Below are positions 1 through 1,120 of a stretch of 12,728 nucleotides of DNA, piece after piece. This DNA comes from a virus (taxonomy: Duplodnaviria > Heunggongvirae > Uroviricota > Caudoviricetes), in the IMG/VR virus record IMGVR_UViG_2585427793_000006, positions 1-12,728 of that record. One strand, 5' to 3'. The position numbers and the translations under genes were made by a program. The notes beneath the pieces are model-generated. The model saw only the letters and a program-made list of their open reading frames with translations. It ran no database searches and was not told the DNA's origin. Positions within the stretch are counted from its first letter, which is position 1. Each line of letters begins with the position of its first letter.

Positions 1-45
1 CAGAAATTAATTAATGGCACCTGGTATAACGCGGCGAGTGTATAA
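1..45 (+). CDS. 3' end of an upstream ORF (partial), possibly a tail fibre gene preceding tfa
   Basis: Frame +1 is open from the window edge to TAA at 43-45 (QKLINGTWYNAASV*), ending 2 nt before the tfa ATG. A fibre gene directly followed by tfa is the usual arrangement. Too short to identify. Confidence 0.3.
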   Translation, partial: QKLINGTWYNAASV

Positions 46-47
46 CA

Positions 48-593
48 ATGCTTCATTTAAAAAATATTACTGCGGGTAATCCGAAAACGGCAGAGCAATA
101 TCAGATGACAAAGCGGCATAGTATTGTCTGGCTTTTTTCGGAAGATGGCAAAAACTGGTATGAAGAACAGAAGAATTTTGCCAGCGACACCATAAAAGCA
201 GCCTATAACGACAGCGGGCGCGTGGTGTGGGTCGGTAAGGATGTGACAGGTATCGAACCCACTAACGTCAGTATCATTGAACTCCCGGATATTACTGCTA
301 ACCGCCGCATCACCGTACCGGGATACTGGTTTTACCGCAATGATGAATTTGTTTTTGATTACAAATTAAAAGCAGAAGACGAGCGTGATACCCTGTTACA
401 ACAGACCAGCATCATGACCAGCGAATGGGAAAAAGACCTGCTGTTGGGATTAATCAGCGACGAAGACAGGGAAAAGCTGAAAGCGTACCGTATTTACGCA
501 AAGGCGTTGCAGGCGATGGATTTAAGCACCATCACCGATAAAACCACATATAACGCCATTAACTGGCCGGAGCGTCCCGATGCCGCAGCTTAA
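48..593 (+). CDS. tfa: Tail fibre assembly protein (Tfa family, Mu gpU / lambda Tfa-like)
   Basis: 181-aa ORF. The N-terminus MLHLKNITAGNPKT...WLFSEDGKNWYEE...ELPDITANRR and the C-terminal NWPERP motif are characteristic of enterobacterial phage tail fibre assembly chaperones, from recalled similarity. Confidence 0.85.
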   Translation: MLHLKNITAGNPKTAEQYQMTKRHSIVWLFSEDGKNWYEEQKNFASDTIKAAYNDSGRVVWVGKDVTGIEPTNVSIIELPDITANRRITVPGYWFYRNDEFVFDYKLKAEDERDTLLQQTSIMTSEWEKDLLLGLISDEDREKLKAYRIYAKALQAMDLSTITDKTTYNAINWPERPDAAA

Positions 594-1050
594 AGGTGTG
601 ATTAAAACGCCCACAGGAGAACCGCTGGGCGGCACAACCATCACGCTGACCTCCCTGCACAACCGTGCAGGGATTCTGAAAGGTGTTTTCAGCCACGTCA
701 CTACACAGAGCGGGGAGTACGACTTCCCCGTTCTGCCGGGCGTGTACAGTGTTCGCCTGACACAGAGCGCACAGCGCCTTTCAGAAATCGGCATCATTCG
801 CGTTTATGAAGATTCACAGGACGGTTCGCTTAACGATTTTTTGTCGGTGACAGATGCAGATTTGCGCCCTGAATCTCTTAAAAAGTTCGAAGAGATTGCA
901 ATGCAGATACAAAAAAGTGCGGAAAGTGTCAGATTATATGCAGAGGAGGTGAAACGGGATTGCGCAATTACCCTCGAAAACAGAAAACAGACAGAGAGAC
1001 TGCTGTCCCTGATAGCAGAGCCTCTTTCTCAGAGTGCCGCAGAAAGCTGA
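580..1050 (+). CDS. Side tail fibre protein, N-terminal fragment only (lambda Stf N-terminal domain-like), truncated at about 156 aa
   Basis: The ATG at 580 overlaps the tfa stop. The protein carries the VYEDSQ(D/P)G(S/T)LNDFL motif typical of the N-terminal domain of lambdoid side tail fibres, but stops at 1050, whereas intact fibres are several hundred residues longer. No continuation is seen in other frames. Confidence 0.6.
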   Translation: MPQLKGVIKTPTGEPLGGTTITLTSLHNRAGILKGVFSHVTTQSGEYDFPVLPGVYSVRLTQSAQRLSEIGIIRVYEDSQDGSLNDFLSVTDADLRPESLKKFEEIAMQIQKSAESVRLYAEEVKRDCAITLENRKQTERLLSLIAEPLSQSAAES

Positions 1051-1088
1051 CTCAAAAAAGGTTAATAATTAAGCGTTTTGTATAGATT

Positions 1089-1120
1089 ATGACGATCGAT
1101 ACCATCATATCGATCGTCGT
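1089..1120. promoter_or_regulatory. Perfect 11-bp inverted repeat (GACGATCGATA, 6-nt loop, TATCGATCGTC) carrying two GATC Dam sites, upstream of com. Candidate Dam/OxyR-type control region of the mom promoter and/or terminator of the upstream fibre fragment
   Basis: Read directly: arms at 1091-1101 and 1108-1118, GATC at 1094-1097 and 1112-1115, followed by GTTTTA. Mu Pmom is known to be controlled through upstream GATC sites (Dam methylation blocking OxyR binding). Confidence 0.45.

What the first reader, a model, noticed from the sequence alone, without database searches (positions are those of the whole stretch)
1..1090. Decayed tail-fibre locus: tfa followed by a truncated lambdoid fibre N-terminus
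The usual gene order is fibre then tfa. Here a fibre 3' end (1-45) and tfa (48-593) are followed on the same strand by only the first ~156 codons of a second side tail fibre with the conserved N-terminal YEDSQ.G.LNDFL motif, which then stops at 1050 right before the com-mom regulatory region. This looks like a recombination or deletion junction, possibly where the com-mom cassette was acquired, or the remnant of a formerly invertible or duplicated host-range locus.
Basis: partly seen in the sequence, partly recalled or inferred. Interest (0 to 1): 0.45.

Follow-up and report, generated by a model that had tools for sequence, protein, structure and literature searches.

The report
Truncated second tail-fibre gene, Mu-like prophage
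The 156-codon gene is the leftover front end of an accessory tail-fibre gene at the right end of a Mu-type jumping prophage, which has lost its receptor-binding part and its chaperone gene; this is ordinary gene decay that public annotation already flags as a pseudogene.

Summary
Window 1-45 is a fibre 3' end, 48-593 is a tail-fibre assembly gene, and 580-1050 is a 156-codon ORF carrying only the PF08400 fibre N-terminal domain plus a roughly 55-residue helix. It stops just before the com-mom control region.

Window 1-2116 is the right end of a Mu-like transposable prophage, which here sits inside gene L43 of a phiP27-like prophage. In related Mu-like prophages the order is tfa1, then a full-length second fibre (443-1040 aa), then a DUF4376 chaperone, then com-mom. 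The window allele lacks the fibre C-terminus and the chaperone, so it is a deletion remnant.

The com-mom genes were not acquired at this junction. They also follow the full-length alleles, as in Mu. No invertase or crossover site is present.

The short allele has one origin: its tail and junction are identical in every copy. It occurs in 23 of 5426 complete E. coli genomes, at seven or more insertion sites and with at least three fibre1/tfa1 modules. The phage therefore moves without the second fibre.

The retained domain matches the collar domain of lambda Stf and of the phage XM1 neck spike. A residual collar role cannot be excluded. Interest is low.

The parts
1..45 (+). 3' end of fibre 1, the primary tail fibre and a homologue of Mu gene S
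   Evidence: Identical to the end of the 356-aa 'phage tail protein' of the E300082 Mu-like prophage. That protein is 31-37% identical to Mu S.
48..593 (+). tfa1, the tail-fibre assembly chaperone of fibre 1 (Mu U/U' homologue)
   Evidence: PF02413, E 3e-23. phrog_136 tail fiber assembly, E 9e-58. 43% identical to Mu U' and 35% to Mu U.
580..1050 (+). Truncated fibre 2, 156 aa. It consists of the collar/anchor N-terminal domain (about residues 1-92), a linker, and one helix (residues 97-154). It has no shaft, no receptor-binding domain and no downstream chaperone gene.
   Evidence: PF08400 at 88 bits. The AlphaFold2 model shows a beta-sandwich plus a single helix 97-154, mean pLDDT 74. The best structural matches are the Ur-lambda gpStf collar 9e7m (TM 0.80 normalised to the target) and the XM1 neck collar spike 7kjk. 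Homologues at the same locus are 443-1040 aa and are followed by a DUF4376 gene. PGAP marks the same allele 'incomplete; missing C-terminus'.
1051..1061 (+). Deletion junction zone. These are the only bases between the stop codon and the point where homology with all other alleles resumes.
   Evidence: Multiple alignment of the regions upstream of com. Conservation begins at window position ~1062 (TTAATAATTAAGCG, against TTAAATAATCAG in the others), which in full-length relatives is the stop-codon region of the DUF4376 gene.
1062..1191 (+). Conserved region upstream of com (the com-mom control region) with two GATC (CGATCG) sites at 1094-1097 and 1112-1115
   Evidence: Conserved in all Mu-like loci, whichever fibre-2 cassette lies upstream, and alignable to the equivalent GATC-containing region of Mu. 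That it regulates mom is inferred from its position and from what I know of Mu.
1192..1377 (+). com
   Evidence: PF10122. 88% DNA identity to Mu/D108 com-mom. PGAP gene of the same extent in E300082.
1298..2035 (+). mom
   Evidence: PF25680, E 4e-75. 88% DNA identity to Mu mom.
2036..2116 (+). Right terminus (attR end) of the Mu-like prophage, ending ...GATTTTGCGCGCTTTA
   Evidence: The same terminal sequence abuts unrelated host DNA in E300082 (mhpA) and STEC388 (a DUF945 gene). A 5-bp direct repeat, GGCAT, flanks the E300082 prophage. The sequence resembles the Mu R end ...TTTTTCGTGCGCCGCTTCA.
2117..2325 (+). 3' remnant of the phiP27 L43-like gene, interrupted by the Mu-like prophage. The rest of the window is the phiP27-like tail module.
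   Evidence: 99.6% identity to phiP27 starts at phiP27 position 28982, inside L43 (28627-29190). Identity is 95.8% over a further 9.6 kb.

Best explanation
Window 1-2116 is the right end of a Mu-like transposable myophage prophage. Instead of Mu's invertible G segment and gin, this lineage carries a second fibre cassette in tandem between tfa1 and com-mom. The cassette encodes a fibre with a conserved collar/anchor domain of about 105 residues, a hypervariable shaft and receptor-binding part, and usually a DUF4376 chaperone.

In the window allele one deletion removed everything from about codon 156, within the first part of the coiled-coil shaft, to the last few bases of the chaperone gene. 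What remains is a 156-codon ORF that cannot make a receptor-binding fibre. I read it as a non-functional remnant of a dispensable accessory fibre. It may still be translated, because the RBS and the overlap with tfa1 are intact.

Shown:
- the domain content of the ORF;
- the full-length homologues at the same locus;
- the single origin of the short allele;
- its spread to many insertion sites and phage backgrounds.

Inferred:
- that the full-length fibre attaches at the neck or as a collar, by homology with phage XM1 gp40 and lambda Stf;
- that its loss is neutral or nearly neutral, as with the stf frameshift of laboratory lambda.
For: (1) Domain content. PF08400 covers residues 4-127. The model is a beta-sandwich plus one helix at 97-154.

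(2) Same-locus homologues. In 14 of the 22 IMG/VR prophage loci, and in E. coli VL40, the order is tfa1, fibre 2 (443-1040 aa), DUF4376 protein, com, mom. STEC388 has a 605-aa fibre 2 with no chaperone gene. The proteins share only the first ~106 residues.

(3) DUF4376 proteins are tail-fibre chaperones (PMC7289586).

(4) The conserved flanks of the cassette are the N-terminal domain, up to about nt 895, and the com-upstream block, from about nt 1062.

(5) Residues 107-156 align in frame, weakly, with the start of the coiled-coil shaft of the 748-aa and 377-aa relatives.

(6) Single origin. Window 895-1068 is 99.4-100% identical in all 23 complete E. coli genomes that carry it. In a metagenome copy whose N-terminal domain (dS 0.16) and mom (6% different) are diverged, the stretch from about 880 to 1300 has a single difference.

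(7) No sign of constraint on the short form. The few singleton differences are mostly non-synonymous: 3 non-synonymous to 1 synonymous.

(8) Mobility without the second fibre. The short allele is found at mhpA, next to irp1, in an rlmB-like gene, in an SDR gene, next to yehQ, in a GH127 gene, and here in phiP27 L43. The E300082 element is an apparently complete Mu-like prophage flanked by a 5-bp duplication.

(9) Precedent. Lambda side fibres were lost by frameshift in laboratory lambda without loss of plaque formation (PMC12617516).

(10) PGAP independently labels the allele as incomplete.
Against: - The ORF is intact in all ten copies compared at the DNA level and keeps its RBS and its overlap with tfa1, so a product is probably made.
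- The truncation leaves exactly the collar domain, the linker and a helix that could trimerise.
- The allele has been carried into at least three different fibre1/tfa1 backgrounds by recombination, and it makes up half of the carriers of this N-terminal domain among complete E. coli genomes (23 of 46). This could reflect selection rather than drift, although many of these genomes appear to be clonal.
- No parent allele containing the 50-residue tail was found, so the left breakpoint is inferred rather than observed.
- The allele is too young for a dN/dS test on the tail.
Confidence: 0.8

Rival explanations
1. The 156-aa protein is a functional 'collar-only' protein. Its N-terminal domain still assembles as a ring on the neck or tail, as the homologous domains of lambda Stf and XM1 gp40 do, and the short helix trimerises. 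The ring could reinforce the head-tail joint or occupy the fibre docking sites. On this reading the truncation is maintained, or even favoured, because it removes a fibre that is useless or costly on the current hosts.
For: - In Ur-lambda, residues 1-91 of gpStf alone form the ordered dodecameric collar, followed by a linker at 92-101 and coiled coil from residue 102.
- The roughly 100-residue N-terminal domain of XM1 gp40 binds the neck and is proposed to reinforce the head-tail connection.
- The model of the window protein reproduces this layout.
- The start codon, RBS and overlap with tfa1 are retained.
- The ORF is intact in all ten copies compared.
- The short cassette is a near-identical island inside diverged flanks, so it has been moved between phage backgrounds.
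- Genuinely short intact family members of 164-303 aa exist.
Against: - Any 3' deletion leaves an intact 5' ORF by default.
- The allele is very young, with 0-2 differences in most copies, so an intact ORF says little.
- The few singleton differences are mostly non-synonymous.
- The naturally short family members have a conserved C-terminal 'GGGPQIY.Y.G' knob that this ORF lacks.
- No independent lineage with the same design was found.
- One database variant of the short allele carries additional frameshifts (P0008, 123 aa), although this may be a sequencing error.
Confidence: 0.13
2. The stop at 1050 marks the recombination junction where a com-mom cassette was inserted into, or next to, a fibre gene of a lambdoid or other prophage.
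For: com-mom is 88% identical to Mu, whereas window 1-1200 has no close match among sequenced phages at the DNA level. The window therefore looks mosaic when read alone.
Against: - Full-length fibre 2 alleles and their chaperones are followed by the same com-upstream block and the same com-mom.
- The whole element is a Mu-like prophage with MuA/MuB-type transposition genes, gam, mor, and Mu-type head and tail genes.
- com-mom next to the right end is the arrangement found in Mu.
Confidence: 0.03
3. The ORF is the constant N-terminal part of an invertible host-range segment (of the Mu G, P1 C or e14 P type) whose variable parts and invertase have been deleted.
For: The locus lies where Mu has S'-U'-gin, between tfa (U) and com. 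tfa1 is closer to Mu U' than to Mu U.
Against: - No Gin homologue was found by tblastn in the window, E300082, VL40 or STEC388.
- No gix-like site with 7 or fewer mismatches was found in the window.
- No recombinase is annotated in the complete E300082 prophage.
- Intact relatives have fibre 2 and its chaperone in direct orientation, each with its own start codon.
- The N-terminal domain of fibre 2 is unrelated to that of fibre 1 (Mu S type), so it is not an alternative C-terminus for a shared constant region.
Confidence: 0.02

Closest known systems
Lambda side tail fibre Stf and its loss in laboratory lambda (PaPa)
   Same: The N-terminal domain is homologous: PF08400; 9e7m chain matched at E 7e-11 by sequence and TM 0.80 by fold. 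In Ur-lambda this domain forms the collar that anchors an accessory fibre. The fibre speeds adsorption but is dispensable, and a mutation abolished it in a phage that still propagates.
   Different: Here the host is a Mu-like contractile-tailed transposable phage, not a siphophage. The lesion is a deletion of 1.5 kb or more that also removed the chaperone gene, not a frameshift. Sequence identity to lambdoid Stf N-termini is only about 33%.
Collar spike gp40 of Vibrio myophage XM1 (PDB 7kjk); neck fibre of cyanophage A-1(L) (PDB 8keg)
   Same: The Ig-like N-terminal domain followed by a helix is homologous: phmmer E 2e-4 and Foldseek E 5e-6 for XM1 gp40. In XM1, a myophage described by its authors as a simple contractile injection machine, this domain binds the neck. 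XM1 is therefore the best model for where the full-length fibre 2 of the Mu-like phage would attach.
   Different: XM1 gp40 is an intact 839-aa protein. Attachment at the neck is only inferred for the Mu-like phage. The window protein lacks everything beyond residue 156.
Bacteriophage Mu right end (S-U-U'-S'-gin-com-mom-attR)
   Same: There are homologues of S and U, com-mom at 88% DNA identity, a related terminal sequence, a 5-bp target duplication, and many insertion sites.
   Different: There is no G inversion system. A direct-orientation second fibre with a different anchor domain, plus a DUF4376 chaperone, lies between U and com. In the window allele this is reduced to a 156-codon stub.
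Dual-fibre arrangement in Actinobacillus phage vB_Apl-pPE4 (fibre, tfa, PF08400-type fibre, small ORF)
   Same: The local gene order is the same. The fibre-end and tfa DNA is 85% identical to window 1-568, and it is followed by an intact 667-aa fibre with a homologous N-terminus.
   Different: The phage backbone differs (it carries an integrase and no com-mom), and the second fibre is intact.

Membership tests
PF08400 'prophage tail fibre N-terminal' (lambda gpStf collar-domain) proteins | Sequence match to the family profile above the curated threshold | tested here: met
   88 bits against a cut-off of 26.6, residues 4-127. PDB 9e7m Ur-lambda Stf, E 7e-11.
PF08400 'prophage tail fibre N-terminal' (lambda gpStf collar-domain) proteins | Ig-like or carboxypeptidase-regulatory-like beta-sandwich fold followed by a linker and coiled coil | tested here: met
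   The AlphaFold2 model has strands at residues 3-75 and a helix at 97-154. Foldseek gives TM 0.80 (normalised to the target) and rmsd 2.4 A to 9e7m.
Functional tail or side fibre (receptor-binding protein) | Long shaft and C-terminal receptor-binding domain after the anchor domain | tested here: not met
   The ORF ends at residue 156. Intact homologues at the same locus are 443-1040 aa.
Functional tail or side fibre (receptor-binding protein) | Cognate chaperone gene immediately downstream (DUF4376 type in this lineage) | tested here: not met
   tblastn with the VL40 DUF4376 protein finds nothing in the window or in the other four short-allele loci tested. It is present in 18 of the 22 other loci.
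Mu-like transposable prophage (right end) | com-mom adjacent to a terminal sequence that abuts different host DNA in different genomes | tested here: met
   The same end...GCGCGCTTTA, lies next to mhpA, a DUF945 gene and phiP27 L43. Further insertion sites appear.
Mu-like transposable prophage (right end) | MuA/MuB-type transposition genes and a 5-bp target-site duplication | tested here: met
   Met in the near-identical E300082 element: a Mu transposase C-terminal domain protein, an AAA ATPase, gam, mor, and GGCAT on both flanks. It cannot be tested in the window itself, because the left end lies outside it.
Invertible host-range segment (Mu G / P1 C / e14 P / Min type) | Serine invertase gene (Gin/Cin/Pin/Hin) next to the fibre genes | tested here: not met
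   Mu Gin tblastn gives no hit in the window, E300082, VL40 or STEC388. None is annotated in the complete E300082 prophage.
Invertible host-range segment (Mu G / P1 C / e14 P / Min type) | Inverted crossover sites and oppositely oriented alternative fibre C-terminus and tfa genes | tested here: not met
   No gix-like site with 7 or fewer mismatches in the window. Fibre 2 and its chaperone are in direct orientation in all intact relatives.
Naturally short PF08400 proteins with a C-terminal 'GGGPQIY.Y.G' knob (164-303 aa) | Conserved C-terminal motif after a short coiled coil | tested here: not met
   The motif is present in P0029, P0025 and P0037. It is absent from the window ORF, which ends ...AEPLSQSAAES.

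The most novel reading that the evidence does not exclude
The deletion allele is not junk but a selected 'fibre-less collar'. The 156-aa protein still forms the neck or tail collar ring of the Mu-like virion, stabilising the head-tail joint or capping the docking sites. This null-fibre cassette has spread by homologous recombination between the conserved N-terminal-domain and com-upstream flanks into several phage backgrounds, because shedding the second fibre is advantageous on current hosts.
Probability: 0.12. Interest if true: 0.45.

Novelty: new member of a known kind. Interest (0 to 1): 0.2.

Why it matters
The practical value is in annotation and interpretation.

- The 2.1 kb at the left of the window is the right end of a Mu-type transposable prophage that has landed inside another prophage. 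It is not a lambdoid host-range locus.
- The odd gene order (fibre, tfa, half a fibre) arises because this Mu lineage carries a second, tandem, cassette-like accessory fibre where Mu has its invertible G segment.
- The lineage offers a natural series of alleles at one slot: fibres of 443-1040 aa, frameshifted forms, and this 156-codon stub. Such a series could be used to study how collar-anchored accessory fibres are exchanged and lost.
- The stub itself is ordinary gene decay, and RefSeq annotation already flags it as a pseudogene.

Tried and rejected
- **Parent allele for the 50-residue tail.** I searched complete E. coli genomes with blastn, phages with tblastn and blastn, plasmids and all fetched loci. 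Only the short allele itself was found, so the left breakpoint could not be mapped on a parent.
- **GTDB genome scans.** This gave no cross-species census, so I used IMG/VR instead.
- **Word-indexed protein search.** It returned only proteins of 241 aa or fewer, many of them labelled partial, and so was not usable as a length census. The exhaustive representative search was used for that.
- **Invertase hypothesis.** Mu Gin tblastn and a gix pattern search were both negative.
- **dN/dS on the short allele.** There is too little divergence. The tail has at most 1 difference. The ratio for the N-terminal domain (about 0.33 against the metagenome copy) reflects divergence imported by recombination, not constraint on the short form.
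- **Promoter and terminator scan of 1-2400.** Nothing above shuffled expectation.
- **A simple deletion of the VL40 or STEC388 allele.** Rejected, because window ~900-1061 is not homologous to either at the DNA level.

Full report
**1. The observation**

- Window 1-45 encodes the last 14 codons of a gene.
- Window 48-593 is a 181-aa protein that matches PF02413, tail-fibre assembly (E 3e-23).
- Window 580-1050 is a 156-aa ORF. Its ATG overlaps the tfa stop by 14 nt, and a GGAG lies 7 nt upstream.
- The ORF matches PF08400, 'prophage tail fibre N-terminal', at 88 bits against a threshold of 26.6, over residues 4-127. It contains VYEDSQDGSLNDFL.
- com (1192-1377, PF10122) and mom (1298-2035, PF25680, E 4e-75) follow.

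**2. What the surrounding DNA is**

- Among sequenced phages, com-mom (window 1202-2040) is 88% identical to Mu, D108 and SfMu.
- From base 2117 the window is 99.6% identical to phage phiP27, starting at phiP27 position 28982. That position lies inside phiP27 gene L43, 28627-29190.
- The match continues at 95.8% over 9.6 kb of the phiP27 tail module.
- In E. coli E300082, window 1-2119 is 99.7% identical to the right end of a prophage that splits mhpA.
- That prophage carries repressor/ner-type HTH genes, a Mu transposase, an AAA ATPase, gam, mor, lysis genes, terminase, a Mu-type head and a contractile tail. GGCAT flanks it on both sides.
- The terminal sequence ...GATTTTGCGCGCTTTA is followed by unrelated DNA in the window, in E300082 and in STEC388. 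It resembles the Mu R end.

So window 1-2116 is the right end of a Mu-like transposable prophage. In this window the prophage has inserted into a phiP27-like prophage.

**3. The locus in relatives**

I compared 22 IMG/VR prophage loci with E. coli VL40, STEC388, E300082 and 23CRST050.
- The usual order is tfa1, then fibre 2 with the PF08400 N-terminus (443-1040 aa), then a DUF4376 protein of about 190-208 aa, then com, then mom.
- DUF4376 proteins are tail-fibre chaperones.
- STEC388 has a 605-aa fibre 2 of a different C-terminal type and no chaperone gene.
- The fibre 2 proteins share only about the first 106 residues.
- Downstream, conservation resumes at window ~1062, which in full-length relatives is the stop-codon region of the chaperone gene.

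Fibre 2 is therefore a replaceable cassette between two conserved flanks. In the window the cassette is only about 165 bp long.

Residues 107-156 align in frame, weakly, with the start of the coiled-coil shaft of the 748-aa and 377-aa relatives. The stop therefore lies in the shaft, and at most 11 nt separate it from the chaperone-gene end. This is the signature of a deletion that removed the rest of the fibre gene and nearly all of the chaperone gene.

Other decayed forms occur in other loci: ORFs of 310, 347 and 55 aa.

**4. Why the other two ideas fail**

- com-mom follows the full-length alleles with the same upstream block, and it is the ancestral right end of Mu. The junction is therefore not the point where com-mom was acquired.
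- There is no Gin homologue, no gix-like site and no oppositely oriented fibre or tfa genes. No recombinase is annotated in the complete E300082 prophage.
- Fibre 1 is a homologue of Mu S (31-37% identity) and tfa1 of Mu U/U' (35-43%). The second cassette lies where Mu has S'-U'-gin, but it is a direct tandem gene set with a different anchor domain.

**5. What the retained part is**

- By sequence, the N-terminal domain matches the Ur-lambda Stf chain in PDB 9e7m (E 7e-11) and the XM1 'collar spike' gp40 in 7kjk (E 2e-4).
- The AlphaFold2 model (mean pLDDT 74) is a beta-sandwich at residues 3-75 plus one helix at 97-154.
- Foldseek ranks the same two structures first, followed by Bxb1 tail-tip proteins and the A-1(L) neck fibre.
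[quoted passage not shown] The side fibres speed adsorption but are dispensable, and laboratory lambda lost them by frameshift.
- In the myophage XM1, the roughly 100-residue domain binds the neck.

By inference, the full-length fibre 2 of this Mu-like myophage is a collar- or neck-anchored accessory fibre. The window protein is the anchor plus a stub.

**6. History of the short allele**

- Window 895-1068 occurs in 23 of 5426 complete E. coli genomes, always in the short form, at 99.4-100% identity. The N-terminal domain itself occurs in 46 genomes.
- Copies lie at mhpA, next to irp1, in an rlmB-like gene, in an SDR gene, next to yehQ, in a GH127 gene, and in phiP27 L43.
- They are associated with at least three fibre1/tfa1 modules, with the switch point near base 513.
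- In one metagenome copy the N-terminal domain (dS 0.16) and mom (6% different) are diverged, but the stretch from about 880 to 1300 has a single difference.
- The allele therefore arose once. It has been moved between backgrounds by recombination and between sites by transposition.
- Differences among copies are few, mostly non-synonymous, and confined to the N-terminal domain. There is no evidence of constraint, but there is also too little time for a test.
- PGAP labels the allele 'incomplete; missing C-terminus' in every RefSeq genome inspected.

**7. Verdict**

- The best explanation is a decayed, dispensable second-fibre gene in a still-mobile Mu-like prophage (confidence 0.8).
- The main rival is that the stub still works as a collar ring (0.13). 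In its favour are the retained translation signals, the domain boundaries of the truncation and the spread of the allele. Against it are the null expectation for any 3' deletion and the absence of the C-terminal knob seen in genuinely short family members.
- The com-mom acquisition and invertible-segment readings are contradicted.
- Novelty is low: this is a new member of a known kind. Interest is 0.2.

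Noticed in passing
window 2116/2117 (and 2053-2325): This is a prophage within a prophage. The Mu-like element ends at 2116 inside the homologue of phiP27 gene L43, whose last ~69 codons remain at 2117-2325. The listed 90-aa TTG ORF at 2053-2325 is a chimera of Mu-end sequence and the L43 remnant. The phiP27-like prophage is therefore probably defective or split.
   Followed up: partly
window 11164-12123, especially from ~11733 on: The Mu gp48-like baseplate protein (PF10076) is 319 aa long. It has a C-terminal extension of imperfect peptide repeats (EPL.IN..G.HFAVV, P...N..QLQT..RT). 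Identity to phiP27 stops at about 11733. A similar repeat-rich tail ends one short PF08400 protein from another E. coli contig (P0024, 202 aa).
   Followed up: no
window ~12130-12728: A stop-free frame (phase of base 12102) of about 200 codons runs off the right end of the window. It lies in DNA of lower GC (43% against 53% for the tail module). It is likely the receptor-binding or fibre gene of the phiP27-like prophage, and the ORF listing does not list it because it is open-ended.
   Followed up: no
window ~2019-2116 compared with L005, L007, L008, L031 and L036: Most short-allele prophages diverge from the window after about base 2013-2019, just before the end of mom. E300082 and TD225-C4 match to 2116. 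At least two versions of the roughly 100-bp right terminus therefore circulate in this phage group.
   Followed up: no
proteins P0029 (164 aa), P0025 (217 aa), P0037 (303 aa): A subgroup of PF08400 proteins is naturally short. Each has the N-terminal domain, a short coiled coil and a conserved ~40-residue C-terminal motif (...GLYLV..D.SKGGGPQIY.YPGDGR.WFAS.EDT). This looks like a minimal fibre or knob and is distinct from the window's truncated form.
   Followed up: partly
window 1086-1120: The com-upstream block has two GATC sites (both CGATCG, at 1094-1097 and 1112-1115). The aligned Mu sequence has three. The block is conserved across all the Mu-like prophage loci examined.
   Followed up: no
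L004 (E. coli STEC388) 6064-7881: The full-length fibre 2 of STEC388 (605 aa) has a C-terminal module unrelated to the VL40 type and no chaperone gene downstream. It matches phrog_13714 and phrog_7032 tail fibre families. It may be a self-folding or enzymatic tailspike-like module.
   Followed up: no
L006 (Actinobacillus phage vB_Apl-pPE4) 11312-15967: A phage deposited as infecting Actinobacillus pleuropneumoniae has fibre-end and tfa DNA 85% identical to window 1-568, followed by an intact 667-aa PF08400-type fibre. Such high DNA identity to E. coli prophage sequence is unexpected for that stated host.
   Followed up: no
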